A program made the translations under genes and the position numbers. DNA of 64,000 nucleotides from positions 28,184-92,183 of the IMG/VR virus record IMGVR_UViG_3300014205_000195; one strand, 5' to 3'. Below the pieces are notes generated by a model, which was given only the letters and a program-made list of their open reading frames with translations, had not been told where the DNA came from and did no database searches. How positions within the stretch are numbered: position 1 is the stretch's first letter; the number at the start of each line of letters is the position of its first letter. The DNA comes from a virus. Lineage: Duplodnaviria; Heunggongvirae; Uroviricota; Caudoviricetes. Shown here piece by piece: positions 10,911 to 62,566 of this stretch.

Positions 10911-11486
10911 CTACTTCGGCAACCCTGCGATCGCCATCACCGCCTTCATGACCCGGATCTGCTTCACGCAGTCCTCGTCAGCCACATGGCCCACCAGGCC
11001 GTCGCCGGCAGTCTTGTAGGCGAGCGTCGCCGCGTCCGACGCGGCCTGGTTCAGCCTGAACAGCGTCCCCAGGTCCCTGGCGCCCTTGCGTCCCCATGCC
11101 GGCGCTATGCCGACGTGCGTGTACAGGTCGGACAGGAGCCTCTGGTCGTAGTACATGTGGCTCCACATGGCCGTGCACTTGTTCTCGCGGTAGAAAGCGT
11201 TGGCGGCGCGCAGGGCGTCGCCCAGCGGCAGCTTCGGCTCGGCCAGCAGCACGGCCCCCTGGGCCTCCGCCGACTGCTGCGCCCACCACATCACAGTGTC
11301 TACCGATGGCTTGCCGGGCGTGGACTTCGGGTCCACGTTGATGAGCGTCCTGGCGATCGGCTCGAAGTCGACCGTATCGTAGGTCACCATGCCTATCTGG
11401 AGAAGGCACAGGTCGCTCAGGCCCTCGGTGTCCACCATGCACTCAATTGGCATAATATATGCCCGCCACCTTCTCGCAATGCTCAC
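10911..11486 (-). CDS. DnaQ-like DEDDh 3'-5' exonuclease (191 aa)
   Basis: VDTEGL (Exo I) ... H...D motifs; paralogous to 37186..37782 (shared TVMWW motif). Confidence 0.6.
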   Translation of the reverse strand: MSIARRWRAYIMPIECMVDTEGLSDLCLLQIGMVTYDTVDFEPIARTLINVDPKSTPGKPSVDTVMWWAQQSAEAQGAVLLAEPKLPLGDALRAANAFYRENKCTAMWSHMYYDQRLLSDLYTHVGIAPAWGRKGARDLGTLFRLNQAASDAATLAYKTAGDGLVGHVADEDCVKQIRVMKAVMAIAGLPK

Positions 11487-11871
11487 GCACAGCAGCTATC
11501 GCCTCGTCCAGCGTCATCGGCGGCCCGGCGTGGTACCGCATCCACGGGCTCAGCGGCGCGGACGTGTCCGGCATCGCGAGCGCAACCTTGACGTACCCCA
11601 GGTCGTACGCGTAGTGGACCTCCATGGCGGTGCCGACAGACGGCCCGTCGTGGTAGACCAGCATCGCCTCGCATATCGAGATGTTCTTCTTATCGTTGCG
11701 AACTATCCGCTCGTAGTCCACGTCCTCGCGGCCGCGGTAGTCCCTGTCCATGGGGTCCACCACGATGGCGACGTCCCGCAGCTCCCGCTTCGCAGTCTCC
11801 CGCCAGGCTGAGCACTCCTCATCGCTGCGGCCGAATATCGGGCCCGCCAGGTAAACCTTCGGTCTGCGCAT
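11443..11871 (-). CDS. nucleoside 2-deoxyribosyltransferase-like / Rcl-family nucleotide N-glycosidase (about 143 aa)
   Basis: PKVYLAGPIFG motif (YLAGPxF of the Nuc_deoxyrib_tr family); start set at ATG 11871 with an AGGGA SD 5 nt upstream, because the longer ORF-track N-terminus overlaps tRNA genes. Confidence 0.6.
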   Translation of the reverse strand: MRRPKVYLAGPIFGRSDEECSAWRETAKRELRDVAIVVDPMDRDYRGREDVDYERIVRNDKKNISICEAMLVYHDGPSVGTAMEVHYAYDLGYVKVALAMPDTSAPLSPWMRYHAGPPMTLDEAIAAVREHCEKVAGIYYAN

Positions 11872-18294: not shown

Positions 18295-19185
18295 CTACTC
18301 CGGCTCCTGCTCCCCCCGTCCGGGTACGTACCTCGTCTTGCCATACCCGCCGGCCCTGATCCTGTCGTACTTGAAGTACTCGCACAGCCAGTGCTCTATC
18401 GAGCTCAGGTGGAGGCGCTGGAGGCCTGGCGCGGCGACCGACTGGAAATCGAGCTCCAGCCTGTGGTACGCCTCGTCCTGGACGTCCCTGAGCCGCCGCA
18501 TGGCGCCCATGGCCTCGGTCGGCTTGAGCTTGTACCCGAAGACGACCTCGAGCCCGCCGAGCGCGCCAGGGCCGGCGTGCGCCCACTCGTCCACGCCGAC
18601 GGTGACGACTGGGTCCGGGCCGTACGTGAGGTCCTGCACCATCTGGTACCCGAGGAAGCTGCCGACGCCGTCCACGCAGGTCATCCACTCATAGGCGCCC
18701 TCCAGCGAGGGCGCGGCCTTGAGCTTCACCGCCAACGCCTCGGACATCCACGCGACCGTCGGGATCGCCTCCGTCACCGCCTTGAACGACGGCGCCATGT
18801 GGGCGGACGTGAACACCGGCTTCTTGGACTTCTTCCGTTCGGCCATCCTGGCCACCACGTCCCGCGGCTCCAGGTCGGCCATGCTCACGAAGCCGCCGAG
18901 CACGTCCCGCCACGAGTCCACGTTGTTCAGCTCGCGGTAGAACCACACGTTCCACACGATGTCCGCGTCGGACAGCCCCGCCGCCCTCGCCTCTGTGATT
19001 CTGTCTATCAGGAACACGGTCCCTGCGTCCAACTCCCTGAACACGTTCGTGAACTTCCACGAGGAGAAGACCGGGTCGTCCGTCCACGGGGCGGACGCTC
19101 CTGAGTCCCTCACGTGCCATATGCGCTGGCGCTCGTGCGCGGTCCTGAAGAAGTCCTCTAGGGCAGCAGTCCAGTCGAGCCGCAA
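18295..19185 (-). CDS. hypothetical protein (296 aa), conserved-looking, function unknown
   Basis: ORF track; globular composition (…FTNVFRELDAGTVFLIDRI…); no family recognised with confidence. Confidence 0.6.
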   Translation of the reverse strand: MRLDWTAALEDFFRTAHERQRIWHVRDSGASAPWTDDPVFSSWKFTNVFRELDAGTVFLIDRITEARAAGLSDADIVWNVWFYRELNNVDSWRDVLGGFVSMADLEPRDVVARMAERKKSKKPVFTSAHMAPSFKAVTEAIPTVAWMSEALAVKLKAAPSLEGAYEWMTCVDGVGSFLGYQMVQDLTYGPDPVVTVGVDEWAHAGPGALGGLEVVFGYKLKPTEAMGAMRRLRDVQDEAYHRLELDFQSVAAPGLQRLHLSSIEHWLCEYFKYDRIRAGGYGKTRYVPGRGEQEPE

Positions 19186-23394: not shown

Positions 23395-23405
23395 ACTGAC
23401 TTGAT

Positions 23406-23603: not shown

Positions 23604-23620
23604 CGCGGCGATCGGCTCTT

Positions 23621-24125: not shown

Positions 24126-24128
24126 ACT

Positions 24129-43682: not shown

Positions 43683-44737
43683 ACCTTCTCGGTGCTCTTA
43701 CCGTCAAGCAGCAGCATGACGAGGCCCGGGTGCTTCGTTGCCTTGGCCTGCTCGGCTATCCAGCGGCGATCGTCGCCGCCCGGCCGCCTGGCCAGGATGT
43801 CCCTAAGGTCGACGGCCGCGGCCGCCAGCCTCTCGTCGTACCAGCCACGTATGGTGGCCTCCGTCGTCTCGACCCAGTCGACGAACCAGGCAGGCGCCTC
43901 GTGCCGGATGGAGTCGGCGTAGCCGTCGACGCCGCCGCGCATCGCGCGCCATATGGTCGCCGCGTTCGTGTCGAACACGTGCTTGTTCGCGATCAGGTAG
44001 TCGTCGAACTTCACCTTCAGCTTCAGGCCTGAGCCGGTGTACCTGATGACGAAGCCCTCCCTGTTCGGCTCCTGGAGGAGCTTCAGGTGGAGCGGGTTCT
44101 CGTCCGAGCCGGCGATGCCGAAGAACTCGGGGAGGTGCGGCCACTGGTCGTCGCGCGGCGGGAACTCCTGGCCGGTCGCCTTGTCGACGGTGCCGAGCAG
44201 GACTAGCCTCTCCTCGTCGTAGCGCACGACGGACGGGTTCTCCGGGTACACGATCTCGAAGACGTAGGTGACGTCCCTGTCGATGGACGGCCACAGGCCG
44301 GCGTACTGCGAGCGCAGGAGCCGGTTGGCGACCGCCGACTGCTTCGTGCGGAAGCTGCGCCGCGTGGCGACGTACGGCTCGTCGTCCATCCAGTACATCA
44401 CGCCGAGCGAGCCGTCGACCTTCTCCCACACCTCGTACGGGCCGGTCGGCAGCGGGCCCATGTGCTCCTCGTAATCGAAGAACTTCCCGAATGGGCGGGC
44501 CACGACGTTGCCGACGCCGTCCGTCACCAGGCCGCGGCACATGAGCGTCACGCGGTCCCACTGCCTGGAGTTGACGGCCAGGCTGGAGTAGCACCACGAG
44601 CTTAGGTCGGTCCGCGGATGCCGGCCGCGGTCGAGCAGGCCCCTGGAATGGTAGTCCTCGAGCTCGGCGATGTCGACGCGGGGCACGGCGCGATGGAGGG
44701 CCATCCCGGTCTCTTCCTTGGTTCTCATCTTGGCCAT
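43580..44737 (-). CDS. ATP-dependent RNA ligase (Rnl-family)
   Basis: Nucleotidyltransferase motif I EKVDGS (KxDG); 385 aa; adjacent to pnk. Confidence 0.7.
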   Translation of the reverse strand: MAKMRTKEETGMALHRAVPRVDIAELEDYHSRGLLDRGRHPRTDLSSWCYSSLAVNSRQWDRVTLMCRGLVTDGVGNVVARPFGKFFDYEEHMGPLPTGPYEVWEKVDGSLGVMYWMDDEPYVATRRSFRTKQSAVANRLLRSQYAGLWPSIDRDVTYVFEIVYPENPSVVRYDEERLVLLGTVDKATGQEFPPRDDQWPHLPEFFGIAGSDENPLHLKLLQEPNREGFVIRYTGSGLKLKVKFDDYLIANKHVFDTNAATIWRAMRGGVDGYADSIRHEAPAWFVDWVETTEATIRGWYDERLAAAAVDLRDILARRPGGDDRRWIAEQAKATKHPGLVMLLLDGKSTEKVWQDCRPAPVQYGEPIVRLDEWDGMHYHGLEDGQ

Positions 44738-44778: not shown

Positions 44779-45228
44779 CTATACCTCTTCTTTATCGAAA
44801 CGTACACGGCCGTCGGTCGCCCACTCGACGTACCGCCTGAGCTCCTTGTCGGCCACGTCCTCCACCAGATCGCCGGAGACGAACATCCTGTAGCTATCGG
44901 AGGCGTACCTCCCGACGCCGGGCAGCGACCTGACGTCCCCTGACCCGTCCCACGAGCAAAGCGCGGCAGACATCTTCACGATGAGCGCGGCCCTCCGGTT
45001 CTGGAGGCCGAGCGTCCGTATGAAGTCCGCCATCTCGTCCACGTCGGCGCTCGCCGCGGCGCTCGCCGTCGGCCACCTGACGAAGAAGTCCCATATGATG
45101 GGCCTGACCTGCTTGATGCTCGTCTGGTTCAGCATCATGCACGCCACCAGCAACCGCCACGGGTTGCCCCTCAGCTCCTCCTGGATGAGGCAGTACGGGG
45201 AGACGTCCAGCGGCGTGAGCACTGGCAC
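44779..45228 (-). CDS. HhH-GPD DNA glycosylase resembling the MBD4 / Mig-type mismatch (T/U/5hmU:G) glycosylase domain
   Basis: PWRLLVACMMLNQTSIKQ...IRTLGLQNRRAALIVKMS...LPGVGRYASDSYRMF parallels the MBD4 glycosylase core (PWKLLIATIFLNRTS...LGLYDLRAKTIVKFS...LHGIGKYGNDSYRIF). Confidence 0.6.
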   Translation of the reverse strand: MPVLTPLDVSPYCLIQEELRGNPWRLLVACMMLNQTSIKQVRPIIWDFFVRWPTASAAASADVDEMADFIRTLGLQNRRAALIVKMSAALCSWDGSGDVRSLPGVGRYASDSYRMFVSGDLVEDVADKELRRYVEWATDGRVRFDKEEV

Positions 45229-46076: not shown

Positions 46077-46694
46077 TTAGATGCCCCGCACGTACTTCAA
46101 ATCATGCCGCCACCGGCCCACGTCCGTCAACGCGTCGTGGATGGCTGCCATGTCCTCCGTGATCTGCACAAACCGGCTGAGCGCCTGCATGATGCCCTCT
46201 ATCACAGTGGGCGTGTAGTCAGGGTCGTCCACCAGGAGCGCCCTGTACGCCGGGCGGAGCGCCTGTCGGAGGGTTATCCTCTCCGCGCCGACGGTGTTGT
46301 CTATGGCGGCCACGCGACCGTCCGCGGTCACCAGCCAGTTGTTGGAGTGCCTGTCGCTGTTGCCGACAACGTAGTCCATGACGACCATGTTGGCGATGTC
46401 CAGGATCGCCCGTTCAGACGACCTGACCGCCATGTATAGGTCCGGGCCGAGCTCGTCGGCGGTCCTGCCATCGACGAACATCTGGGCGGATCTGTGCTCG
46501 TCGTACTGGACGGTCAGCGGGACTATCCCGTCGAACACGGCTGCCGCGACCGCGTACGCCGCCACCTCGTCGTGCCCGTCCCGAAGAACCCACCTGTTGC
46601 CGAGCACGTCCGTCGCTATCCTGATGCCCGACAGCCCAGGCCTCACCTCCCCGGCGTTCGGCTCCCTGACTGACACGAACCACCCGTTATCCAC
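46077..46694 (-). CDS. PI3/PI4-kinase-like atypical protein kinase (205 aa), paralogue of 26886..27869
   Basis: VGNSDRHSNNWLV ... AAIDN motifs. Confidence 0.55.
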   Translation of the reverse strand: MDNGWFVSVREPNAGEVRPGLSGIRIATDVLGNRWVLRDGHDEVAAYAVAAAVFDGIVPLTVQYDEHRSAQMFVDGRTADELGPDLYMAVRSSERAILDIANMVVMDYVVGNSDRHSNNWLVTADGRVAAIDNTVGAERITLRQALRPAYRALLVDDPDYTPTVIEGIMQALSRFVQITEDMAAIHDALTDVGRWRHDLKYVRGI

Positions 46695-49567: not shown

Positions 49568-51088
49568 CTACGTGTTCCTTCCGGCTATCAGGGCGTCGCG
49601 TCTGCGCTGGCCGAACATGCCCTGCGCGTCGCCGAGTATCGCCATCACCGGCCCGTCGTCCGCCGCCCTGATCATCAGGGCTATCGACCAGAACGCATCG
49701 CCGTGGCCGTCCTTCGTCTGTATGGACTTCAGCAGCCTGTCGACGGCGACTATCTGCGACGTCTGCCTCCTGTCTTCCAGGAGGACGATGCCGGGCTCGT
49801 CGCCGTCGGCGTAGAACCTGGCCTCCATGGCGAGTGCCATCTGGGCCTTTGACCGCTGCGTGAACGTGACGCCGATGGCCCTTTTCGGCATGTTCCGGTC
49901 GTCCATCTCGGACCGTGTTGAGTCGTAGTAGAAACGCTTGATGTTGAAGTGCTCGATGAGCCTGCGCACGTGCTTGGCCTGCGCGCGGTAGTCCATCCCG
50001 TCCAGGAACTCCTGGTACACCTGCACCAGGTCGCCCGTCGGCATCAGCGCGGCGATGCTCACGTGCGTGGGGTGCACGTTCTTGCCGACGTCCATGCCGC
50101 CGTACATGCCCAGCGTGCCGGTCTGGTTGAACGGCTCCGACAGCTTCGCCGCGCGAAGGAGCGGGTCGCAGTTGGTCTCGACGACGGCCTGAGGTATGAA
50201 GCTGTTGACGGCGAGCACGGGCACGAGCATGTACTCGACCTCGTACGCCGTGTCGTGGACCCTGCGCCGCGTCCTCTTCAGACGCTCCATGTCGAACTTC
50301 TCCGGCCATAGCGTCCTGCCGTCGCCCAGCTCGGCCGGGAACTTGGCCCAGACGTACTCCGGGTTGTTCCTCAGCTTATAGAGCGTGTCCTCGTACGACT
50401 GCGGCGTGCCTATGACGACGAGGGAGTCGCCCTCGTCAGGCAGCGACTCCAGCGACTGTCTGAATATGGTGTCTATGCGCCTGATCTGCGTCGGCTCCAG
50501 CGCGTTTGCGAAGTCGGACAGGATGTCGTCGCATATGAGGAACTTGGGATGCAGTCCGCGAACGGCCGACATTATGCCGTACGGGTCTATCTGCCCCCGC
50601 CACTCTCTGTCCGTGCCGAACGATATCTTGAAGTCCACCACGGACTCCGCCCGCGGCTTGTTGTCCACCCAGAAGCGACAGTACGGGTTGTTCACTATCG
50701 CCTCCTTTATCTTGATGACGTGCTCCTGCGCGAGCGTGTCCTTGTAGGACATCACTATGCCGTCGACGTTCTGGTTGGCCCTGAACAGCTTCCAGAAGGA
50801 GAACGCGTGGTTGATTATGGTCGACTTCAGGTGCGCCCGCGGCGCCAGTATGCAGACGCGCGGGTTCTCCTCGACTATCTTGGCCCAGACGAAATGAGCC
50901 TTGCCGAGCGAGAACTCGTGGTACTGCTTGTCCGCCATCCTGAACTTCTTGCCATCGAAGCTTCGCGGGTACACGTACGCCAGGAAGAACTGGAACGACG
51001 CCTGGGCGGCCGTTATGACCGCCATGTCCTTCTTGGAGAACGGCGTCGGCGCCGGGCCCTGCCCGCCGCTAGTAGTCGTCTTCCTCAT
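49568..51088 (-). CDS. terL: terminase large subunit
   Basis: 506 aa; ATPase Walker A-like ILAPRAHLKST and Walker B FLICDDI; C-terminal RNase-H-like nuclease region (GMDVGKN...). Confidence 0.8.
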   Translation of the reverse strand: MRKTTTSGGQGPAPTPFSKKDMAVITAAQASFQFFLAYVYPRSFDGKKFRMADKQYHEFSLGKAHFVWAKIVEENPRVCILAPRAHLKSTIINHAFSFWKLFRANQNVDGIVMSYKDTLAQEHVIKIKEAIVNNPYCRFWVDNKPRAESVVDFKISFGTDREWRGQIDPYGIMSAVRGLHPKFLICDDILSDFANALEPTQIRRIDTIFRQSLESLPDEGDSLVVIGTPQSYEDTLYKLRNNPEYVWAKFPAELGDGRTLWPEKFDMERLKRTRRRVHDTAYEVEYMLVPVLAVNSFIPQAVVETNCDPLLRAAKLSEPFNQTGTLGMYGGMDVGKNVHPTHVSIAALMPTGDLVQVYQEFLDGMDYRAQAKHVRRLIEHFNIKRFYYDSTRSEMDDRNMPKRAIGVTFTQRSKAQMALAMEARFYADGDEPGIVLLEDRRQTSQIVAVDRLLKSIQTKDGHGDAFWSIALMIRAADDGPVMAILGDAQGMFGQRRRDALIAGRNT

Positions 51089-53133: not shown

Positions 53134-53658
53134 TCACCGCATGACGTGCGCCTCGGCCTCCCTTCGGGACTGCTCCCGCGACAGACGAACGAGCTGCTCT
53201 TTGTAGATGTTGGCCTGAGTCTCGAGTAGCTTGACACGGTGTCGGCGCGCCAGAAGCGCCTGGTACATCTTCTTCACGTCCTCATCGTTGGAGAGGGCCA
53301 GCGCCCTGAGGACCTCCTTCACTGTCCTTCCGTCACCCGCACGCCTGGAGGCCTCCTCGTCCATGGCGATCCCCAGCTTCACGCTGAACACCTCCTCCAA
53401 CGCCCCCAACTCAGACTCCTCGCGGCCCAGTAGTTGCAGTGTGTATGTGTAGAATGCCGTCAACTGCAGCGACAGCGTGCCCAACGTATTCGACTTTATC
53501 ACGGATACGTCGGAAGGGTAACTGTACTGTCGCCCGAGACCCTCCGGCTTCTCCATCTGCGGCAGCTGCAGGCCCGTCATCCACCGGTCGGCCGCCTTGA
53601 ACATCTCGCCCAGCGTCCACTTCTGGGCGCCGTCGTCATCAGAACTCGACGAGCTCAT
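53134..53658 (-). CDS. hypothetical protein (174 aa)
   Basis: ORF track. Confidence 0.45.
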   Translation of the reverse strand: MSSSSSDDDGAQKWTLGEMFKAADRWMTGLQLPQMEKPEGLGRQYSYPSDVSVIKSNTLGTLSLQLTAFYTYTLQLLGREESELGALEEVFSVKLGIAMDEEASRRAGDGRTVKEVLRALALSNDEDVKKMYQALLARRHRVKLLETQANIYKEQLVRLSREQSRREAEAHVMR

Positions 53659-54535
53659 CCACGTCCCCCAATTCGTCCTCGGCCACGTAGACCTCGCGGC
53701 CCTCGTTGTCCGCCGTGAACACGGTCTCGTCCCACTTGGTCATCAGCGCCTCGCTGACGGCCTTAGGCCCCACGCCCAGGCCGTCCTGGAGGTTGTAGCA
53801 CGCCTGCTCACGGTAGCACTTCCGGCACGTGATCGACCCGCGCTTGAACGGTGGGTCTATCAGCTGGCCAGCCAGCGTCGCCTCGCGAGCGGCCAGGCTG
53901 TTTGTGAAGGCCATCGTCATCAGCTTCTCGTTCGGCCTGAACCAGCGTATGCAGTAGTCCTGGTCGTTGGTGTTCTCGAACAGGAAGAAGACGTCGTCTG
54001 ACAGCTCTGGGTACAGCCGCCTGAACTCCACGAGGTACTGCGTCAGCTGGAAGACGTATGACGATTCAGCCTTGTACATCACGCTCGCCATGGCCAGGTA
54101 GTCGCGCTCCTGCGCCGGGACGCGCCTGAACCGACCGTCGTTCATCGTCTTTATCTCGCCAAGATGCGTCTTCCCGGTGACGGGGTTCCTGACCATGACG
54201 TCGTACTCGCCGGACCAGTAGCCCGGGATCTTCAGGCGCTCGCCGCCCTTGACGAGGACGCCGGCCTTGTCCAACTCGGCGGTCCACCTGGCGTGCGCCG
54301 CCGTCCCGTTGTCCATGCGCCTGCGGTTCTTCGGCTTTATCTCCGTGTGGTGGCCGAGCATGGACAGCTGTATGTCGCGGATGCACGGGCTGCCTGCCCC
54401 AGACGGGTGGATCTCTGGGTTGGGGGCGGTCCACCGCTCCGGCTCGCCAGACGGCGCGCGGTCTATGGCGGTCCCAAGCCAGTCACCCGTGTCCAGCTGC
54501 TTCAGCCTCCTGGCGAGCAGCCCGCCGTCAGCCAA
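53639..54535 (-). CDS. PD-(D/E)XK-family nuclease-like protein (298 aa)
   Basis: ...GEYDVMV...HLGEIKT... pattern consistent with a D..(D/E)xK nuclease core. Confidence 0.45.
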   Translation of the reverse strand: MADGGLLARRLKQLDTGDWLGTAIDRAPSGEPERWTAPNPEIHPSGAGSPCIRDIQLSMLGHHTEIKPKNRRRMDNGTAAHARWTAELDKAGVLVKGGERLKIPGYWSGEYDVMVRNPVTGKTHLGEIKTMNDGRFRRVPAQERDYLAMASVMYKAESSYVFQLTQYLVEFRRLYPELSDDVFFLFENTNDQDYCIRWFRPNEKLMTMAFTNSLAAREATLAGQLIDPPFKRGSITCRKCYREQACYNLQDGLGVGPKAVSEALMTKWDETVFTADNEGREVYVAEDELGDVDELVEF

Positions 54536-55379
54536 CGTCGGCCGCCAGCTTCTTCACCCAGGCAGCCATCGGCTCGCCGTCCCACGGGGCCAACACGTCC
54601 CCCCAGCGACCGGAGCTGGCCGCATCCACCGAGCATACGGCGCTGAACTGCGATGCCATCATGCGCATGATTGGGCCTTCGTCCCTGGCAAGGTGCGAGG
54701 CAGCGACGTTCGCGAGCGTCTTGCCCTTGACCGGCGTCGGGCGCAGATCGAAGTGCCGCTCGTACACGTGCGCGTTGCCGGCCAGGTGCGAGTACGGGCC
54801 GAGCTCGACACCGAGCGCGTCTGCCACGCACATCTGCACTGCAACGAAGCATGGGACGTCGTTTGTCAGGCCCCACACCAGGTCCCACGACCTCATGTTC
54901 ACCGTCATCTCAAGCCGGCCGTGCCTGACCATGAACTGCCACGACACTGTGCACGGGACCTCGCGCTCGCTGCGCTGCTGCACCTTCAGGAGGTCGTTCT
55001 CGCGGCCCACGTGCACGATCGCGCGCCTCGAGTCTGGGTCGTCCGTCAGCTCCCTGACCACGTCCAGCAGCTGCGAGCTCACGCGCGGCCCGTACGCGCC
55101 GTGAGGCGTCATGAGATCGGCAGCCTGCTGCGATATCCGGGCGAGCACCCCGCCGTCGTACGTGCCACCTATCATCTGGGCGGCCTCCATCCACATGAGG
55201 GCGCGACTGATGCCTGGCCTCGTGACGAGGCACGCCTCTGGCCTCGTGAGCCTGAGCAGGAGCGGCCGCACCTCCATGACCTCCATGCCGCGCGGCCTAG
55301 ACAGCTCGCCGTCGTCCAGCACGTCCAGGAGCAGGTCCGGGTACGTGAACCCCAAGTCGTCGGTCTCGTGCACGAGCAT
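54528..55379 (-). CDS. thymidylate synthase / dNMP hydroxymethylase-family protein (divergent)
   Basis: 283 aa; ThyA-fold signatures including the nucleophile Cys in VPCTVSWQF (ThyA reads PCHxxFQF; here His is replaced by Thr). Confidence 0.65.
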   Translation of the reverse strand: MLVHETDDLGFTYPDLLLDVLDDGELSRPRGMEVMEVRPLLLRLTRPEACLVTRPGISRALMWMEAAQMIGGTYDGGVLARISQQAADLMTPHGAYGPRVSSQLLDVVRELTDDPDSRRAIVHVGRENDLLKVQQRSEREVPCTVSWQFMVRHGRLEMTVNMRSWDLVWGLTNDVPCFVAVQMCVADALGVELGPYSHLAGNAHVYERHFDLRPTPVKGKTLANVAASHLARDEGPIMRMMASQFSAVCSVDAASSGRWGDVLAPWDGEPMAAWVKKLAADVG

Positions 55380-55381
55380 CG

Positions 55382-56320
55382 CTAAACCACCGTGAACCCG
55401 CGCTCCTCGAGCGTCGGGAACTTTGTTATATTGGACGGCACCTCCGGCTCCGTCACGCGCCCGCTGGCGCCGTCGATGAGCCGCCCGTACTCGACGACGT
55501 CCTTGTAGCGCTCAGCCGACCACAGCGTGGCCGACGGGACGCTCCGGTACTCGGTGACACCGGCCGCCTCGCAGGCAGCCTCGCCAGCGTCGCCGAACGC
55601 CACGAACTCGGTCGACATCCAAAAGTCGCTGCCGTCGAACCCGTCCAGCGACTCGACGACGCACACCTGGTTCAGCGGTATGCCGGCCCCGACCATCGCC
55701 CTGAACAGGTACCTGTTGGGCGCGTCGCCGACGAGACAGAGCCTCGGGCTGTAGCCGTTGCCGAACCACGAGCCCAGCGGCATCGGCGACGACTCGAAGA
55801 ACCCGACGATGCCCTCTATCTCGGCGATCGCCGACTCGAGCGCACCTGGCACGGTAAAGTCGTACGAGATCCACGGGAGCGCCGTGATGCTGCCGACGTA
55901 CGCCTCGTACAGCTGCCTGACCTGCGCCTGCATGGCAGGCGCCTCGTACACCGCCGCATCCTCGTCTATCGGGCCTGCGGCTACGTTCGCGTCGCTGGCG
56001 GATGCCGGCGGGTTAGCCCATACGAGCAGCGAGTTGTAGCCCATCAGGGTCCCCTCTATCTGCCAGTGCTCGTACGGCGTCAGGTCATCCATGCCGCGGA
56101 AGATGGTCCCGTACACGAAGCTGCCGATGTGCAGCCTGTCCAGGACGGCATGCCCGTACGGGTGCCGGCGCACAGCGTCTAGGTAGAACGCGAGCGGCTC
56201 GTACGTCGGCGGGCCGGCGTGCTCTATGCCCCAGCCGCGCTCCACGAGCGCGTTCGCCAGCGTCGTCTTCCCCGTGCCGTCTGCGCCCTCTATCAAAACG
56301 AACGGACGTCTGGTCATGCC
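55382..56320 (-). CDS. thymidylate-kinase-like dNMP kinase fused to a C-terminal domain of unknown function
   Basis: P-loop LIEGADGTGKTT (Tmk signature); start trimmed to MTRRPFV (ATG 56320) giving a 4-nt overlap with the upstream deaminase gene. Confidence 0.65.
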   Translation of the reverse strand, partial: GMTRRPFVLIEGADGTGKTTLANALVERGWGIEHAGPPTYEPLAFYLDAVRRHPYGHAVLDRLHIGSFVYGTIFRGMDDLTPYEHWQIEGTLMGYNSLLVWANPPASASDANVAAGPIDEDAAVYEAPAMQAQVRQLYEAYVGSITALPWISYDFTVPGALESAIAEIEGIVGFFESSPMPLGSWFGNGYSPRLCLVGDAPNRYLFRAMVGAGIPLNQVCVVESLDGFDGSDFWMSTEFVAFGDAGEAACEAAGVTEYRSVPSATLWSAERYKDVVEYGRLIDGASGRVTEPEVPSNITKFPTLEERGFTVV

Positions 56321-56757
56321 TGCCCCCTCTTGCCGCCGGTCAGGTCCGGCGCACCACTGTGGTCCTCGTAGTCCTCGAGCCACCGCCACTCGTCTATGCC
56401 GGCGGCCCTCAGCAGCTTCTGGCACTCGTAGCACGGCTTCACGAGCGTGAACAGCACCGCGCCGGCCGTCGGGTGCCCATGGGCCGCCGCCTGGGCGACG
56501 GCGTTGGCCTCTGCGTGGACCGTCCGCTTGCAGTGGCCGTCCACGATGAAGCACCCGACGTCAGTGCAGTGCGGCTCGCCAGGGGGCGAGCCGTTGAAGG
56601 CTGTCGCCACGATGTAGGGCTTGCCGCCGGCCCCTGTGCGCGTCAGAACTGCGCCGACGCGCCTCCGCGGGCACGTGCTCTGCTCCGCCCACACCCTGGC
56701 CGTCTGCCAGATCGACTCGTCCTTGGACGGCCTAGTACCCGGTGTTCTGTCTGTCAA
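56314..56757 (-). CDS. dCMP deaminase (cytidine/deoxycytidylate deaminase family)
   Basis: HAEANAV ... PCYECQKLL zinc-binding motifs (HAE / PCxxC). Confidence 0.8.
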   Translation of the reverse strand: MTDRTPGTRPSKDESIWQTARVWAEQSTCPRRRVGAVLTRTGAGGKPYIVATAFNGSPPGEPHCTDVGCFIVDGHCKRTVHAEANAVAQAAAHGHPTAGAVLFTLVKPCYECQKLLRAAGIDEWRWLEDYEDHSGAPDLTGGKRGQA

Positions 56758-57166
56758 TGTTCACCGCCGCCTTCTCGAAGTAGAGCTCCACCATCCGCCT
56801 CGGGTCCACGCCCGCCCTCAGGTAAAGGTTCAGCAGCAGCACGAGCACGTCCGTGATCTCGAGCCTTGCCTCGGCCCACTCCTCCGCCGTCGGCTCGCGG
56901 CCCCAGTCCCGCTTGTGCATCTTCCACGGCAGGCATCGCAGCACCTCGTGGGCCTCGTCCAGCAACATGAGGATGTTCTCCTTCATGAACACGACGTCTC
57001 CGCTGACGGGCTTGCCGTTCACCGTCTGGTCCCAGTTGCCGCGTAGCCTGTCCTGCAGCTCCGCCTGCGTTGCCATCATCCTGCCGATGATCGCGACGTC
57101 CTCGGCGCTCACTCCATCCATCCCGACACCCACCTCACACGCCTGACCTCGACGTCCTCGCCACAC
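56732..57166 (-). CDS. MazG-like all-alpha nucleoside triphosphate pyrophosphohydrolase
   Basis: 144 aa, helical; EAHEVLRCLPWKMHKRDW...EEWAEARLEITDVLVLL resembles the MazG/dUTPase-like NTP-PPase fold. Confidence 0.5.
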   Translation of the reverse strand: MWRGRRGQACEVGVGMDGVSAEDVAIIGRMMATQAELQDRLRGNWDQTVNGKPVSGDVVFMKENILMLLDEAHEVLRCLPWKMHKRDWGREPTAEEWAEARLEITDVLVLLLNLYLRAGVDPRRMVELYFEKAAVNIDRQNTGY

Positions 57167-57501
57167 TCGTCCACGAACGCCGTTATCCTGTCCTTCAGAT
57201 TACCGAGATTAGATGCGGTCACCTCGTCGTCCCTGACGCGCAGCACTGCCACGCCGGCGACGCTCAGCAGGAGTGCGTCCCTCTCCGTATCCTTCCTGGA
57301 CTTTGCCGTGCTGCCGTGGTGCCAGTCGCGCCCGTCGTACTCGACCGCTGCGTGCACCTCCTCGAGGTAACAGTCGACCGTGTACGGACCGACCTCGTAC
57401 TCATCCTCCACGGCCAGCCCGAGCGACCTCAACAGCGACGACAACCGCTGGTGACCGGCCGTCAGCGACGTCGACTGGCCCGGCCTCCCGCTACGAAGCA
57501 A
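57109..57501 (-). CDS. Vsr/DUF559-like endonuclease-fold protein
   Basis: VDCYLEEVHAAVEYDGRDWH core. Confidence 0.4.
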   Translation of the reverse strand: MLRSGRPGQSTSLTAGHQRLSSLLRSLGLAVEDEYEVGPYTVDCYLEEVHAAVEYDGRDWHHGSTAKSRKDTERDALLLSVAGVAVLRVRDDEVTASNLGNLKDRITAFVDECGEDVEVRRVRWVSGWME

Positions 57502-57961
57502 AGTTGTCCCGGACGTACCTCAGCCACGCCCCGTCGGCCCTCTCCCGGTTCTCCTCGCGCACCTGCATCAACAACATGCCGAGCCTGTTCAGCCCGACGC
57601 CGTCCACCACGCCCCAATACCTGTCTCCCCAGCGGTTGTCCTCCAGGAGGATTGAGTCGCCGGTGTCGTCCAGCATGAGCACCAGGTTGGAGTACACAAA
57701 CTTCTGCCTGAGGAGGTCCAGCATGACGTCGTCCTTGACGTCCTCCCAGTCCGGCCTCAGATCTGCCAGGCGGCCCAGCGCCTTAGCGTCGGCCGCCTTG
57801 TACGAGTTCATCACAGCCACCCTGTAGTCTGGATCGAGCGACTTGGACGCCTGGTACGCGTGCTCCACTGACCTGAACGGGAGCGAGAACGCGACCACCT
57901 CCACCGGCCAGAAGTTGGACAGGAACCGGTGCCGACCCTGGAACCCCATCACGACGTCCAC
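57491..57961 (-). CDS. NADAR (YbiA-like) domain protein
   Basis: FLSNFWP ... EHAYQASK motifs characteristic of the NADAR/DUF1768 family. Confidence 0.7.
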   Translation of the reverse strand: MDVVMGFQGRHRFLSNFWPVEVVAFSLPFRSVEHAYQASKSLDPDYRVAVMNSYKAADAKALGRLADLRPDWEDVKDDVMLDLLRQKFVYSNLVLMLDDTGDSILLEDNRWGDRYWGVVDGVGLNRLGMLLMQVREENRERADGAWLRYVRDNFAS

Positions 57962-60900: not shown

Positions 60901-62026
60901 GAGGAGCGGCTTCAGCAGGCCGAACAGCTCCTCCGGGGCGATCGACTTCAGCTCCTCCACGGTCATGCCGGTCACTGTCGTCCGGGCCGGCGCCTGATCC
61001 TCTACTATTGGGTCGGTCATCGTGCTCTCCGTTCTCTGTGGTGGTATGCCCAGTTCTGCCGTGCAAGGTTGGCACGGTCGAAGACAGGTCATTATACCAC
61101 AGAACAGCTACGGAAGCGAGCACGTTTTCGACCTCATCGCCATCGCATTCCTGGATGTCCTTCCGTCCAGGCGGGAGGCTAATCCCCATGACGTTCAGCC
61201 TGGACAGTATCCCCCTCGCCTCGTCCGTGATGAGCCTGCCGGCAGTGTCCTGATCGAACCCGAGCACGACTGTCCAGAACCGCCTCTTTATTATGTCGGC
61301 CTGCTCGGCTGACATGGACGCGCCGAGCAGCGCGACCGCTGGGTAGCCGAACTGCTCCAGCCACATGCAGTCCAACGGGCCCTCTGTGACGATCACCGTC
61401 CGGCTGTTCGGGTCCACCTTGTCCAGACCGAACAGGTGCCCGGACTTGCCGAGGCCGCGACTGTTCATGTACTTGGGTCCCGGGCCCAGGTTGCGCCTGA
61501 CGAGGCCGATGAGCTTGCCGTCTGCCTTGAACGGGATGACCGCGCACCTCATCTGCGGGTCGTAGCCGACCTCCCACCGGCGCAGCGTCTCCATCGAGAA
61601 CCCGCGGTCCACCATGTACTTGGGGACGCGGCTGCGCTCGTAGAACAGCGGCTCCGGCGGGCGCTCCCTGACCGGCCTGTCACGCCGGCGCTTCAGCATG
61701 TCCACTATGGTACGGCTATCCGCGGGTATCTTCAGCCGCAGCCGCCTGCGGGCCGATTGGTCGGACTCGCCGGTGACCTTCGCCACCAGGAACGCGAGGT
61801 CCGGGCTGGACCCGCAGCCGGCGCGGCAGCGCCACGCGCCGTCGTTCACGTGGACGGTGAACGACGGGCTCTGCTCGTCGTGGAGCGGGCAGCACGCGTT
61901 GTGCCATCCCTCGCTGTCGCCGTCCGTCAGATCTATCCCGAGCTCGTCCAGCGTCGCGAGCACCACCTCGCGCCCGTAGCTCGGGTACTCGTCTGGGTTA
62001 CGCCTGCGCTGTCGTCTCCGGATCAA
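60893..62026 (-). CDS. dnaG: DnaG-type DNA primase (CHC2 zinc finger + TOPRIM)
   Basis: CCPLHDEQSPSFTV...CRAGCG zinc-binding domain; TOPRIM VIVTEGPLDCMW ... GFDQDTAG. Confidence 0.8.
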   Translation of the reverse strand: MIRRRQRRRNPDEYPSYGREVVLATLDELGIDLTDGDSEGWHNACCPLHDEQSPSFTVHVNDGAWRCRAGCGSSPDLAFLVAKVTGESDQSARRRLRLKIPADSRTIVDMLKRRRDRPVRERPPEPLFYERSRVPKYMVDRGFSMETLRRWEVGYDPQMRCAVIPFKADGKLIGLVRRNLGPGPKYMNSRGLGKSGHLFGLDKVDPNSRTVIVTEGPLDCMWLEQFGYPAVALLGASMSAEQADIIKRRFWTVVLGFDQDTAGRLITDEARGILSRLNVMGISLPPGRKDIQECDGDEVENVLASVAVLWYNDLSSTVPTLHGRTGHTTTENGEHDDRPNSRGSGAGPDDSDRHDRGGAEVDRPGGAVRPAEAAPHP

Positions 62027-62566
62027 TCTCGTTCCCCCAGGACGAAAAGCCGTCTATCCCGCGCCTGGCGAACAGATCTATCCTGGGCCCCGGGGATGCG
62101 GTCCTCACCATGTCGTAGAACTGCCCGGGCTTCTCCGAGTGCCTCGTCCTCGGGGCATAGAATACCGTGGGGAGGCTCCTGGACGCCGTGGGGAGCCGGC
62201 CGCGGACGCCGAACGCCACGTGCTCCGTCACGTTCCTGAAGTAGTGGCCCATGCCGATGTGCGGGTTCCCGGCCTTGTTCACCTTCACCCACGTCAGCAA
62301 CGTCTTGTAGGTGAACCCCCACTCGCCTATCAGCCTGACTGCCTCGGCCACGAAGCCGTTCGTGGCCCAGACGTAGACGTGCGCGTCCGGGGCGGCCATG
62401 TCGCCTATCGGCATGGCCGCTATCTCGTCCAGCGTCATCAGGGAGTAGTGCTTCGCGGCCCCCCTCCCGCCGCCGGGGAGCCGGTCGTCGTACGGCCACG
62501 GTGGGTCCATCACTATCGTCGAGAACGGTCCCGGCGGTAGCCCGGTCGCGAGCGTCACCTCAGGTC
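61998..62566 (-). CDS. N6-adenine DNA methyltransferase (DPPW motif)
   Basis: IVMDPPWPY catalytic motif; start trimmed (GTG near 62566) because the upstream 115 codons of the ORF-track entry are Arg/Gly-rich and overlap the dnaB gene. Confidence 0.65.

What the first reader, a model, noticed from the sequence alone, without database searches (positions are those of the whole stretch)
54528..57166. dNMP-metabolism cluster (TS/hydroxymethylase-like, Tmk-like kinase with extra domain, dCMP deaminase, MazG-like) suggests a modified thymine or cytosine in the phage DNA
This gene set is characteristic of phages that replace a canonical base: the deaminase makes dUMP, a ThyA homologue may be a hydroxymethylase (its PCH active-site motif reads PCT), a dedicated dNMP kinase handles the product, and a pyrophosphohydrolase excludes the canonical dNTP. 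The window also holds an MBD4-like T/U/5hmU:G glycosylase (44779..45228), an Rcl/NDT-like N-glycosidase (11443..11871) and an N6-adenine methyltransferase (61998..62566). Whether the TS-like enzyme is a true ThyA or a 5-hydroxymethylase cannot be decided from sequence alone.
Basis: partly seen in the sequence, partly recalled or inferred. Interest (0 to 1): 0.7.

Follow-up and report, generated by a model that had tools for sequence, protein, structure and literature searches.

The report
Phage operon for making 5-hydroxymethylcytosine DNA
An uncultivated high-GC phage carries a tight four-gene operon that most likely works like the phage T4 pathway replacing cytosine with 5-hydroxymethylcytosine in its DNA; this is a known strategy, here with an unusual kinase fused to a decayed uracil-DNA-glycosylase-like domain.

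Summary
The four genes are real, on the minus strand, overlapping or 2 nt apart. Their order is conserved in related metagenomic phages.

- **Thymidylate-synthase (TS) homologue:** it is not ThyA. At E. coli ThyA positions 143/146/147/169/177 it reads E/C/T/D/D. That is the pattern of T4 gp42 dCMP hydroxymethylase. It differs from ThyA (L/C/H/D/N), dUMP hydroxymethylases (N177), 5-hydroxy-dCMP synthases (N169) and the XP12 dCMP methylase (N143, P147).
- **"MazG-like" gene:** a homologue of T4 gp56 dCTPase/dUTPase (hhalign 98%).
- **Deaminase:** an intact dCMP deaminase.
- **Kinase:** a YorR/Tmk-like nucleotide kinase fused to a UDG-fold domain. The fusion family has over 1,500 clusters and almost always sits directly upstream of a D177-type TS. 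In this window the UDG pocket motifs are lost.

Best reading: a T-even-type pre-replicative 5hm-dCTP pathway, so the modified base is cytosine, not thymine.

An M6 gp55-like PF18723 gene at 18295-19185 and an MBD4-like glycosylase may belong to the same biology. They leave open further modification after replication.

Its dUMP route is not supported. This is a known kind of system with a new variant. Nothing here is chemically proven.

The parts
56732..57121 (-). gp56-like all-alpha NTP pyrophosphohydrolase (predicted dCTPase/dUTPase), 129 aa
   Evidence: Profile of 4 orthologues against T4 gp56: hhalign probability 98.2%, E 3.2e-14 over 120 columns, including the C-terminal K..N..RQ..GY end. 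Best PDB match is the C. jejuni dimeric dUTPase 1w2y, E 6e-4. Pfam dUTPase_2 E 1.8e-5. Acidic residues E56, E59, E88 and D91 are invariant among the orthologues.
56314..56757 (-). dCMP deaminase, 147 aa
   Evidence: Pfam PF00383 E 3.7e-15; PHROG 174 E 1.5e-31; NCBIfam ComEB-type 97.6 bits. The zinc motifs HAE and PCYEC are present in the translation.
55802..56317 (-). N-terminal nucleotide-kinase domain (about residues 1-172) of the 311-aa fusion protein; predicted 5hm-dCMP kinase
55382..55801 (-). C-terminal UDG-fold domain of the same protein, degenerate in this phage
54528..55379 (-). Thymidylate-synthase homologue, predicted dCMP hydroxymethylase (5hm-dCMP synthase), 283 aa
   Evidence: Signature E143/C146/T147/D169/D177 in E. 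coli ThyA numbering, against T4 gp42 D/C/T/D/D, ThyA L/C/H/D/N, dUMP hydroxymethylases D/C/N/D/N, 5-hydroxy-dCMP synthase E/C/T/N/D and XP12 N/C/P/D/D. Best PDB matches are cytosine-specific enzymes: 9iqu and MilA 5b6d. It scores 57 bits against NCBIfam ThyA cut-offs of 108-576.
57109..57501 (-). DUF559/MTES_1575 (Vsr-like restriction-endonuclease fold) protein, a conserved upstream neighbour of the gp56-like gene; role inferred only
   Evidence: Pfam MTES_1575 E 6.9e-7 and DUF559 E 4.2e-6. It is adjacent to the gp56-like gene in L003, L009 and L011 as well.
53639..54535 (-). Cas4-like PD-(D/E)XK exonuclease; its start overlaps the TS stop by 8 nt, and it is the conserved downstream neighbour
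   Evidence: PHROG 1990 E 3.1e-11 and PHROG 1706 E 7.9e-11. A gene in the same position occurs in L003, L009 and L011.
18295..19185 (-). PF18723 (HMUDK_hel, 'aGPT-Pplase clade 1', M6 gp55-like) protein; possible partner acting on 5-hydroxymethylpyrimidine DNA after replication
   Evidence: Pfam E 8.1e-54, full length. BLASTP against M6 gp55 E 8e-23, with the shared H..LCE..KY.R Cys-Glu motif. Homologues lie within 10 kb of kinase-UDG plus D177 TS modules in L024, L035, L046 and L087, and directly upstream in L087.
44779..45228 (-). MBD4 glycosylase-domain homologue (T/U/5hmU opposite G); candidate repair of deaminated C5-modified cytosine
   Evidence: PDB phmmer E 5e-23 to human and mouse MBD4 glycosylase domains across residues 10-140. 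The catalytic Asp is aligned (…GRYASDSYR… against …GKYGNDSYR…).
11443..11871 (-). Nucleoside 2-deoxyribosyltransferase/Rcl (DNPH1)-like N-glycosidase; link to the pathway is speculative
   Evidence: Pfam PF05014 E 5.7e-8. PDB 7m5h E 8e-4, with the catalytic Glu position aligned.

Best explanation
The operon is a T-even-type pre-replicative pathway that loads the phage's dNTP pool with 5-hydroxymethyl-dCTP, so that the phage family-A DNA polymerase builds 5-hydroxymethylcytosine into the genome in place of cytosine.

Proposed steps:
1. The gp56-like pyrophosphohydrolase hydrolyses dCTP (and dUTP) to the monophosphate. This keeps canonical C out of DNA and supplies dCMP.
2. The TS homologue attacks C6 of dCMP with Cys143 (ThyA C146). 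It takes the methylene from 5,10-methylene-tetrahydrofolate. Because the active site is open and acidic (E at position 143, T at 147, Q in place of W80), water adds to the intermediate instead of hydride. The product is 5hm-dCMP.
3. The adjacent, translationally coupled YorR/Tmk-like kinase phosphorylates 5hm-dCMP. Host NDP kinase completes the triphosphate.
4. The dCMP deaminase diverts part of the dCMP to dUMP for dTMP synthesis by a TS that was not found in the window (presumably the host's).

What is shown: homology of each enzyme, the diagnostic residues, the operon structure and the conservation of the module. What is inferred: substrate, product, the kinase's substrate and the extent of replacement.

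The kinase's C-terminal UDG-fold domain has lost the conserved pocket motifs in this phage and is probably structural or regulatory here. The MBD4-like glycosylase and the Vsr-fold endonuclease would fit repair of 5hmU:G mismatches arising from deaminated 5hmC. The PF18723 protein may act further on the 5hmC DNA.
For: - **TS signature.** E/C/T/D/D matches T4 gp42 and differs from every other characterised class I could align. The meaning of positions 143, 169 and 177 is taken from PMC13326640. The meaning of 147 and 177 is taken from PMC8670742.
- **Family conservation.** D177, D169 and C146 occur in 74/74 members, T147 in 73/74, and an acidic residue at 143 in 63/74.
- **Nearest solved relatives.** These are cytosine-specific enzymes (9iqu, MilA). 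ThyA equivalog models are failed by a wide margin.
- **gp56 homology.** hhalign 98.2%.
- **Kinase-TS coupling.** In 80 IMG/VR loci found through the kinase, a TS homologue follows it directly in almost all of the 67 loci that hold one. The TS reads D/E-C-T-D-D in 67 of 71 TS homologues, counted over those loci plus L003, L009-L011 and the window.
- **Synteny.** The operon order is conserved in L003, L009 and L011.
- **Published association.** Co-occurrence of TS, a MazG-type pyrophosphohydrolase and dCMP deaminase is linked to cytosine-modified contigs (PMC8670742).
- **Absent genes.** No DHFR, ThyA/ThyX, 5-HMUDK or Pplase2 was found among the window ORFs scanned.
Against: - There is no chemistry. 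The call rests on a handful of diagnostic residues. The 143 rule is correlative, and only one dCMP methylase (XP12) was available for contrast.
- The NJ tree groups the window family with the T4 gp42 clade in only 35 of 100 bootstraps.
- The window also carries a PF18723 gene. That family has so far been described only in thymidine-hypermodifying phages.
- Relatives (L009, L010, L020-L022) carry a C5 DNA-methyltransferase homologue beside the module. That would be pointless if cytosine were fully replaced.
- No glycosyltransferase or other known 5hmC-decorating enzyme was found.
- About 43 kb of the 107-kb contig lies outside the window and was mostly not examined.
- A Tmk-like kinase would be at least as well suited to 5hm-dUMP as to 5hm-dCMP.
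Confidence: 0.65

Rival explanations
1. The TS homologue is a dCMP methyltransferase, and the phage DNA carries 5-methylcytosine made before replication, as in Xanthomonas phage XP12.
For: Asp177 only says that the substrate is dCMP. E. coli ThyA N177D makes 5m-dCMP (literature cited in PMC8670742). The MBD4-like and Vsr-fold proteins would fit T:G repair after 5mC deamination equally well. Eleven of 74 family members lack an acidic residue at position 143.
Against: The window enzyme has E143 and T147, like T4 gp42. XP12 has N143 and P147. XP12 has a DHFR next to its TS and deaminase, as reductive methylation requires. No DHFR was found among the scanned window ORFs. W80, which shields the intermediate in ThyA, is Gln here.
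Confidence: 0.08
2. The end product is a thymine replacement (5hmU or a hypermodified thymine). Either the TS homologue uses dUMP made by the deaminase, or the adjacent deaminase converts 5hm-dCMP to 5hm-dUMP, which the Tmk-like kinase then phosphorylates.
For: The deaminase and a Tmk-like kinase are in the same operon. The window encodes a full-length PF18723/M6 gp55-like protein, and that family is known from 5hmU-based systems. dCMP deaminases of T-even phages and of mammals can deaminate 5hm-dCMP (my own knowledge, not tested here).
Against: All four dUMP hydroxymethylases aligned (M6, Ab18, Goe26, LuckyBarnes) have N177 and N147. The window enzyme and its whole family have D177 and T147. 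The pyrophosphohydrolase is a gp56 (dCTPase) homologue. No dTTPase/dTMPase, 5-HMUDK or Pplase2 was found. An Rcl/DNPH1-like N-glycosidase and an MBD4-like glycosylase suggest removal of 5hmU rather than use of it. PF18723 homologues also sit next to D177-type modules elsewhere.
Confidence: 0.08
3. Ordinary nucleotide salvage: a divergent but true thymidylate synthase with dTMP kinase, dCMP deaminase and dUTPase boosts dTTP supply, and the DNA is canonical.
For: Every one of the four families also occurs in plain dTTP-synthesis modules, and sources annotate relatives as thymidylate synthase or kinase.
Against: N177D, H147T, L143E and W80Q. The ThyA C-terminal segment is replaced by a family-specific tail. 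It scores 57 bits against ThyA equivalog cut-offs of 108 bits or more. Extra dTTP synthesis is an odd investment for a genome of 66% G+C.
Confidence: 0.03
4. 5hmC is only an intermediate. After replication it is converted to a new hypermodified cytosine by the PF18723 protein. In that case the kinase-UDG fusion may act on 5hmC in DNA, with a glycosylase fold flipping the base and a P-loop kinase phosphorylating it, by analogy with 5-HMUDK plus aGPT-Pplase.
For: PF18723 is present and keeps the Cys-Glu motif. It is adjacent to kinase-UDG plus D177 TS in L087, and within 10 kb in three more loci. Relatives L010 and L020-L022 place a 5-HMUDK homologue and a C5-methyltransferase homologue directly upstream of the module. 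Known 5-HMUDKs are likewise paired or fused with a glycosylase-like domain (PMC5889632). The UDG pocket motifs are strongly conserved across the fusion family.
Against: In this window the UDG pocket motifs are lost. The kinase shares only the P-loop with 5-HMUDK. A dNMP kinase for 5hm-dCMP is required anyway, and no other candidate was seen. M6 gp55 was dispensable for hypermodification in vitro (PMC8989533). The PF18723 gene lies 36 kb from the operon, among tRNA genes.
Confidence: 0.12

Closest known systems
Phage T4 hydroxymethylcytosine pathway (gp56 dCTPase/dUTPase, gp42 dCMP hydroxymethylase, gp1 dNMP kinase, cd dCMP deaminase)
   Same: The same four activities are predicted. There is direct homology to gp56 (hhalign 98%) and to gp42 (same superfamily and the same D/E-C-T-D-D active-site signature). 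The dCMP deaminase is of the same family.
   Different: The kinase is not a gp1 homologue. It is a YorR/Tmk-like kinase with a UDG-fold domain. The genes form one operon instead of being scattered. No glucosyltransferase, phage TS or DHFR was found in the window. The host is unknown and the genome has 66% G+C. TS identity to gp42 is only about 22%.
Cytosine-modification clusters of RB69, DLP3 and RL38JI (5-hydroxy-dCMP synthase, YorR/Tmk-like nucleotide kinase, dCTPase; PMC13326640)
   Same: A TS homologue with D177 and an acidic residue at 143, a YorR/Tmk-like 'nucleotide kinase' nearby, and a dCTP pyrophosphatase. The best PDB sequence match of the window TS (9iqu) has this class's N169/D177 pattern.
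   Different: The window enzyme keeps D169, the folate-type residue. It therefore lacks the D169N change that marks the flavin-dependent hydroxylases. No glycosyltransferases are present.
MilA, CMP 5-hydroxymethylase of Streptomyces rimofaciens (PDB 5b6d)
   Same: Second-best solved relative (E 4e-15). The Asp at the position of ThyA N177 is aligned directly. The source paper reports Asp at both the 143 and 177 positions of MilA.
   Different: MilA acts on the ribonucleotide, in antibiotic biosynthesis. The window gene sits in a phage replication and dNTP operon with a dCTPase homologue, so dCMP is the expected substrate. This is inferred, not tested.
Thymidine-hypermodification systems (dUMP hydroxymethylase, 5-HMUDK, aGPT-Pplase; phages M6, ViI, SP10, PhiW-14)
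   Same: A TS-family hydroxymethylase plus dCMP deaminase, and an M6 gp55-type PF18723 protein in the genome.
   Different: The TS is D177, not N177. There is no 5-HMUDK homologue, no clade 2 Pplase (amino-acid:DNA transferase), and no PLP or radical-SAM enzyme in the window.
Uracil-DNA glycosylase superfamily, families 4 and 5, and UdgX
   Different: The domain is fused to a nucleotide kinase. No Fe-S cysteines are evident. In the window protein the Phe-containing segment is deleted, and the Asn, His-Pro and Arg-Phe positions are replaced.

Membership tests
Canonical thymidylate synthase ThyA (EC 2.1.1.45) | Asn at position 177 (uracil recognition), His147, and a bulky hydrophobic residue at 143 that shields the methylene intermediate | tested here: not met
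   The window protein has D177, T147 and E143; W80 is Gln.
Canonical thymidylate synthase ThyA (EC 2.1.1.45) | Score above the curated cut-off of an NCBIfam ThyA equivalog model | tested here: not met
   Best score 56.8 bits against cut-offs of 108-576 bits.
TS superfamily (PF00303) | Catalytic Cys146, phosphate-binding R21/R126/R127/R166/S167, and E58, Y94, H207, Y209 | tested here: met
   All are conserved in the window protein and in 71-74 of 74 family members. Pfam score 63.3 bits, above the 24.3-bit cut-off.
dCMP hydroxymethylase (T4 gp42 type, EC 2.1.2.8) | Asp at position 177 (cytosine recognition) | tested here: met
   D177 in the window protein, in 74/74 family members and in all 71 kinase-linked TS homologues.
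dCMP hydroxymethylase (T4 gp42 type, EC 2.1.2.8) | Acidic residue at position 143 and Asp retained at 169 (folate-dependent, water-accessible site) | tested here: met
   E143 and D169. T4 gp42 has D143 and D169. The rule is taken from PMC13326640.
dCMP hydroxymethylase (T4 gp42 type, EC 2.1.2.8) | Phylogenetic grouping with characterised dCMP hydroxymethylases | tested here: inconclusive
   The NJ tree places the family beside the T4 gp42 clade, with only 35/100 bootstrap support.
dCMP hydroxymethylase (T4 gp42 type, EC 2.1.2.8) | Formation of 5hm-dCMP from dCMP and methylene-THF | not testable with these tools
   This needs an enzyme assay, or LC-MS of DNA from expressing cells.
5-hydroxy-dCMP synthase (RB69 gp48 type) | Asn replacing Asp169 | tested here: not met
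   D169 in the window protein and in 74/74 family members. The Mosigvirus homologue has N169, and the PDB chain 9iqu also has Asn at that position in its printed alignment.
dUMP hydroxymethylase (SPO1/M6/SP10 type) | Asn177 (and Asn147 in the examples aligned) | tested here: not met
   M6, Ab18, Goe26 and LuckyBarnes read D/C/N/D/N. The window protein reads E/C/T/D/D.
dCMP methyltransferase (XP12 type) | D177 with a non-acidic residue at 143 and Pro147; a DHFR gene alongside | tested here: not met
   XP12 has N143 and P147, with a DHFR adjacent. The window protein has E143 and T147, and no DHFR was found. Only one reference sequence was available, so this test is weak.
T4 gp56-type dimeric d(C/U)TPase (all-alpha NTP pyrophosphohydrolase) | Sequence and profile homology to gp56 and to dimeric dUTPases, with the metal-binding acidic residues | tested here: met
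   hhalign probability 98.2%, E 3.2e-14. 1w2y E 6e-4. E56, E59, E88 and D91 are invariant among orthologues. Preference for dCTP was not tested.
dCMP deaminase (cytidine/deoxycytidylate deaminase fold) | H-A-E and P-C-x-x-C zinc motifs; Pfam PF00383 above its cut-off | tested here: met
   56.1 bits against a 25-bit cut-off. Both motifs are readable in the translation.
Thymidylate kinase (PF02223 / TIGR00041) | Score above the curated cut-off; the NMP-binding helix pair that reads thymine | tested here: not met
5-hmdU DNA kinase (5-HMUDK, M6 gp54 type) | Homology beyond the P-loop | tested here: not met
   hhalign aligns only 23 P-loop columns. An HMM of the 5-HMUDK-like proteins of relatives finds nothing in the window at E up to 10.
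Uracil-DNA glycosylase superfamily | UDG alpha/beta fold | tested here: met
Uracil-DNA glycosylase superfamily | Motif B His-Pro, and the pocket Phe and Asn | tested here: not met
   The window protein has Ser-Ala in place of His-Pro, the Phe segment is deleted, and Asn is replaced by Glu. These positions are conserved in 135-151 of 154 relatives.
PF18723 HMUDK_hel / aGPT-Pplase clade 1 (M6 gp55 type) | Full-length Pfam match above the cut-off; conserved Cys-Glu | tested here: met
   183.3 bits against a 25-bit cut-off, covering profile positions 2-275 of 281. The LCE motif aligns with M6 gp55. The biochemical function of this clade is unknown.
MBD4-type HhH-GPD mismatch glycosylase | Homology to the MBD4 glycosylase domain with the catalytic Asp | tested here: met
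   E 5e-23 over 131 residues, with the Asp aligned. Substrate was not tested.

The most novel reading that the evidence does not exclude
The phage does not stop at 5hmC. The M6 gp55-like PF18723 protein, possibly with the kinase-UDG fusion, would convert 5hmC in DNA into a cytosine hypermodification not yet described. This would be a cytosine counterpart of the 5-HMUDK/aGPT-Pplase thymidine-hypermodification chemistry.

Relatives that place a 5-HMUDK homologue and a C5-methyltransferase homologue directly upstream of the same kinase-UDG/TS pair (L010, L020-L022) would be further versions of such a pathway.
Probability: 0.15. Interest if true: 0.75.

Novelty: new variant of a known kind. Interest (0 to 1): 0.45.

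Why it matters
If correct, this extends the T-even style of complete cytosine replacement to a distinct lineage of large (about 100-170 kb), high-GC, tRNA-rich environmental phages. Such DNA would resist many restriction enzymes and would behave oddly in sequencing and cloning.

Two by-products may be more useful than the phage itself.

1. The nucleotide kinase fused to a UDG-fold domain is a very large uncharacterised family: 1,521 clusters at 50% identity with E up to 1e-30. It is almost always directly coupled to a dCMP-hydroxymethylase-type TS. What the glycosylase fold does there is unknown and easy to test.
2. PF18723, 5-HMUDK-like and C5-methyltransferase-like genes sit beside D177-type TS modules in several phages. 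This hints that post-replicative hypermodification of 5hmC through a phosphorylated intermediate may exist, a chemistry so far shown only for thymidine.

Tried and rejected
- **Close cultured relatives.** Megablast of the region against 50,697 phage records found nothing. tblastn of the kinase found nothing. There is no close cultured relative.
- **Portal protein.** It only matches haloarchaeal tailed viruses at about 26% identity. I considered an archaeal virus and rejected it. RecA, DnaB, DnaG and the RF-1-like domain are of bacterial type, and the proteome is not strongly acidic.
- **Phylogeny.** An NJ tree with bootstrap of TS homologues did not resolve the deep branching. I therefore relied on diagnostic residues.
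- **Kinase as a DNA kinase.** I tested whether the kinase is a 5-HMUDK. Only the P-loop aligns.
- **Other modification genes.** I looked for a 5-HMUDK-like gene, Pplase2, T4 beta-glucosyltransferase and a C5-methyltransferase in the window with custom HMMs. None was found.
- **PF18723 structure.** phmmer of the PF18723 protein against PDB sequences found no match.
- **PF18723 relatives.** A single-sequence search of IMG/VR with the PF18723 protein returned only one locus, of M6 type.
- **Upstream contig end.** The DnaB look-up failed, so that end was not examined beyond the DNA polymerase.
- **Remaining ORFs.** Pfam scans of them found no glycosyltransferase, DHFR, ThyA/ThyX or carbamoyltransferase. 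Some short ORFs were not scanned.
- **Correction.** I first read Bacillus phage Goe26 as SPO1-like. Its kinase-Pplase fusion gene next to thyA shows it is SP10-like.

Full report
**What is in the sequence**

The window has about 66% G+C throughout, and every convincing gene is on the minus strand. It is part of a 107,438-bp metagenomic contig (ENA ERZ27247358 k141_1647009; also in SRR6484325). It has no close relative among 50,697 deposited phage genomes.

At 54528-57166 there are four tightly packed genes:

| Gene | Coordinates | Size |
|---|---|---|
| All-alpha NTP pyrophosphohydrolase | 56732-57121 | 129 aa |
| dCMP deaminase | 56314-56757 | 147 aa |
| P-loop kinase with a C-terminal extra domain | 55382-56317 | 311 aa |
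| Thymidylate-synthase (TS) homologue | 54528-55379 | 283 aa |

- The kinase starts at the ATG at 56317, not at the GTG that gives the 390-aa ORF.
- Junctions are a 26-nt overlap, an ATGA overlap, a 2-nt gap and an 8-nt overlap into a Cas4-like exonuclease gene.
- Upstream lie RecA, a NADAR protein and a DUF559/MTES_1575 endonuclease-fold protein.
- The same gene order recurs in related contigs of 56-172 kb (L003, L009, L011).

**The TS homologue is not ThyA and carries the dCMP-hydroxymethylase signature**

- Pfam sees only the central third of the TS domain.
- Every NCBIfam ThyA equivalog is missed by a wide margin: 57 bits against cut-offs of 108 bits or more.
- Its best matches among solved structures are cytosine-specific enzymes. 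These are a 234-aa 'thymidylate synthase' (9iqu/9iqc) and MilA CMP hydroxymethylase. Ordinary ThyA chains score lower.

Two papers give residue rules in E. coli ThyA numbering.
- N177 reads uracil, and Asp there switches the enzyme to dCMP.
- A bulky hydrophobic L143 excludes water, while D or E at 143 goes with hydroxymethylation.
- D169N marks the newly described flavin-dependent 5-hydroxy-dCMP synthases (PMC13326640).
- Positions 177 and 147 best separate TS homologues on cytosine-modified contigs from those on unmodified contigs (PMC8670742).

I aligned the window protein with references taken from annotated phage records. Positions 143/146/147/169/177 read as follows:

| Protein | 143 | 146 | 147 | 169 | 177 |
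|---|---|---|---|---|---|
| Window | E | C | T | D | D |
| T4 gp42 (5hmC) | D | C | T | D | D |
| E. coli ThyA | L | C | H | D | N |
| M6, Ab18, SP10-like Goe26, LuckyBarnes (5hmU route) | D | C | N | D | N |
| RB69-like Mosigvirus (5-hydroxy-C) | E | C | T | N | D |
| XP12 (5mC) | N | C | P | D | D |

- Among 74 homologues of the window protein, D177, D169 and C146 are invariant. T147 occurs in 73, and position 143 is acidic in 63.
- The phosphate-binding arginines and E58, Y94, H207 and Y209 are kept.
- W80 is replaced by Gln in this family. From memory, weakening that Trp in ThyA exposes the methylene intermediate to solvent. I did not check this.
- An NJ tree puts the window family (100/100 monophyletic) beside the clade holding T4 gp42, but with only 35/100 support. 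Phylogeny alone decides nothing.

**The other three enzymes match the T4 scheme**

- *Pyrophosphohydrolase.* A profile of the enzyme and three orthologues aligns with T4 gp56 dCTPase/dUTPase. Probability is 98.2% (E 3e-14) over 120 columns, up to the shared C-terminal motif. The best solved relative is the dimeric dUTPase of C. jejuni.
- *Deaminase.* It has the HAE and PCxxC zinc motifs and strong dCMP-deaminase family matches.
- It fails the Tmk family cut-offs. It shares only the P-loop with the 5-hmdU DNA kinase of M6.
- The same YorR/Tmk-like 'nucleotide kinase' is listed next to the TS homologues in the cytosine-modification clusters of DLP3, RB69 and RL38JI (PMC13326640).

**The extra domain is a UDG fold, widespread in the family but decayed here**

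- Four of 32 homologues reach the Pfam UDG model.
- An exhaustive profile search finds 1,521 cluster representatives (50% identity) at E up to 1e-30. The best 150 all match full length, at 282-362 aa.
- BFVD holds a few unannotated two-domain matches, including Bacillus phage G gp315.
- In 154 representatives, UDG-type pocket positions are strongly conserved: G-[D/E] in 143, a Phe in 135, an Asn in 144, His-Pro in 146 and 151, and Arg-Phe in 146 and 140.
- The window protein keeps only G-D. The Phe segment is deleted, and the other positions are replaced.
- Whatever the pocket does in most members, it is probably not done in this phage.

**The kinase-TS pair is a conserved module tied to D177 enzymes**

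- Scanning IMG/VR with the kinase alignment gave 80 loci. I scanned them, together with L003, L009-L011 and the window, with HMMs built here.
- In almost all of the 67 IMG/VR loci that hold a TS homologue, it follows the kinase directly.
- Its signature is D/E-C-T-D-D in 67 of the 71 TS homologues, counted over those loci plus L003, L009-L011 and the window.
- In 52 of the 85 loci scanned the kinase ORF carries the UDG-like domain.
- A dCMP deaminase lies within 10 kb in most loci.
- Two loci also hold a T4 beta-glucosyltransferase homologue.

This coupling is the strongest argument that the kinase handles the product of the TS homologue. That remains an inference.

**Best explanation**

The operon is a T-even-type pre-replicative route to 5hm-dCTP.
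1. dCTP is hydrolysed to dCMP by the gp56 homologue.
2. dCMP is hydroxymethylated.
3. 5hm-dCMP is phosphorylated by the adjacent kinase, and host NDP kinase finishes the triphosphate.
4. The deaminase feeds dUMP to a TS that was not found in the window.

I put this at about 0.65.

**Rivals**

- 5mC by an XP12-like methylase (0.08). Against it: E143 and T147, and no DHFR.
- A 5hmU end product through dUMP, or through deamination of 5hm-dCMP (0.08). Against it: D177 throughout, and a dCTPase-type pyrophosphohydrolase.
- Plain dTTP salvage (0.03).
- 5hmC as an intermediate to a further modification (0.12).

**Other genes that bear on the question**

- *MBD4-like glycosylase.* The HhH-GPD protein at 44779-45228 is an MBD4 glycosylase-domain homologue with the catalytic Asp (E 5e-23).
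- With the Vsr-fold DUF559 protein inside the cluster, it would suit repair of G-mispaired T or 5hmU arising from deaminated C5-modified cytosine. That fits 5hmC or 5mC better than a thymine replacement. This is inference.
- *NDT/Rcl-like protein.* It lies at 11443-11871 and keeps the catalytic Glu position. Human DNPH1 of this family destroys 5hm-dUMP (my own knowledge). A sanitising role here is speculation.
- *PF18723.* Unexpectedly, 18295-19185 encodes a full-length PF18723 protein (HMUDK_hel, E 8e-54). It is homologous to M6 gp55 (E 8e-23) and shares its Cys-Glu motif.
- This glycosylase-like family has been described as restricted to thymidine-hypermodifying phages (PMC5889632). M6 gp55 was dispensable in vitro (PMC8989533). 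Every cultured example I checked pairs it with an N177 enzyme.
- Yet PF18723 homologues lie within 10 kb of kinase-UDG plus D177 TS modules in four IMG/VR loci. In L087 the gene is directly upstream (Pfam E 1e-43).
- *Relatives.* L010 and L020-L022 place a 5-HMUDK homologue and a C5 DNA-methyltransferase homologue directly upstream of the module. Neither is present in the window.

These contexts leave room for post-replicative chemistry on 5hmC, which is the most novel reading (probability about 0.15).

**Limits**

- Nothing was measured chemically.
- The position-143 rule is correlative, and only one dCMP methylase was available for contrast.
- About 43 kb of the contig lies outside the window. 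Only 6.5 kb of tail genes and the DNA polymerase end were seen.
- Some short ORFs were not scanned.

**Verdict**

A modified pyrimidine is likely, but it is cytosine-derived, and the deaminase-to-hydroxymethylase chain is not supported.
- The system is a known kind: the T4/RB69-type pre-replicative cytosine modification, whose gene set is already associated with modified contigs.
- The variant features are the UDG-fold kinase fusion and the link to PF18723.
- Interest is moderate, at 0.45.

Noticed in passing
window 8624-24913: There are 39 tRNA genes on the minus strand covering all 20 amino acids, with three Met-CAT genes. They are interspersed with small ORFs. Many long ORF calls in this stretch are artefacts of reading through tRNA genes.
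   Followed up: partly
window 18295-19185: A full-length PF18723 (HMUDK_hel / aGPT-Pplase clade 1, M6 gp55-like) gene sits alone among tRNA genes. No 5-HMUDK or clade 2 Pplase is present in the window. The family was previously tied to thymidine-hypermodifying phages, but it also occurs beside D177-type TS modules.
   Followed up: yes
L010 3-3989; L020 8070-11909; L021 2442-6236; L022 8309-11762: In related metagenomic phages the order is 5-HMUDK homologue (about 200 aa, E 1e-9 to 1e-18 against M6 gp54), then a C5 DNA-methyltransferase homologue, then the kinase-UDG fusion, then a D177 TS. In L009 the methyltransferase carries an intein with LAGLIDADG, but no 5-HMUDK homologue was found there. 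This is a candidate, undescribed post-replicative pathway acting on 5hmC.
   Followed up: partly
window 41974-44737, 16769-17533, 13280-14794, 37186-37782, 10911-11486: There is a large RNA repair and processing set. It comprises T4-type RNA ligase, RlaP, polynucleotide kinase-phosphatase, Thg1 tRNA-His guanylyltransferase, a Ro60/TROVE-vWA protein and two Rv2179c-like 3'-5' exoribonucleases.
   Followed up: no
window 38278-40259, 41339-41848, 57491-57949, 9920-10507: NAD-related genes are present: NAMPT, a NUDIX protein, CinA, a NADAR domain protein and an AAA_28 (NadR-kinase-like) P-loop protein. They look like NAD reconstitution or anti-defence functions.
   Followed up: no
window about 12345-13011: There is a short ORF pair with peptide-chain-release-factor domains (PCRF and RF-1) next to tRNA-Ile, in a phage with a near-complete tRNA set.
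   Followed up: no
window 46077-46694, 26886-27869, 24996-25436: Two proteins have a PI3/PI4-kinase-like catalytic motif, and there is also a dual-specificity phosphatase. The first kinase-like gene is conserved right after the portal gene in relatives.
   Followed up: no
window 5031-7997: A 988-aa protein combines a prohead-protease-like segment, a NUDIX domain, DUF5661 and a 2H (2'-5' RNA ligase/LigT) phosphoesterase domain.
   Followed up: no
window 46687-48708: The portal protein's only relatives among cultured viruses are haloarchaeal tailed viruses (HVTV-1, HCTV-1/5, about 26% identity) and a Methanomassiliicoccales virus. The replication genes, in contrast, are of bacterial type.
   Followed up: partly
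window about 61998-62558: An MT-A70 family N6-adenine methyltransferase (DPPW motif) is wedged between DnaB and the primase. It is conserved at that place in L003 and L011.
   Followed up: no
L007 4031-7084 (Gordonia phage Phendrix): The closest cultured TS homologue (33% identity) is Phendrix gp180. It also has the D/C/T/D/D signature, with a 'thymidylate kinase' and a dCMP deaminase nearby. Godonkaviruses may therefore also make a C5-modified cytosine.
   Followed up: partly
L003 14449-20912: In the 165-kb relative, the genes in the positions of window 49568-51088 (506 aa) and of the window's portal gene carry intein and LAGLIDADG insertions that are absent from the window.
   Followed up: no
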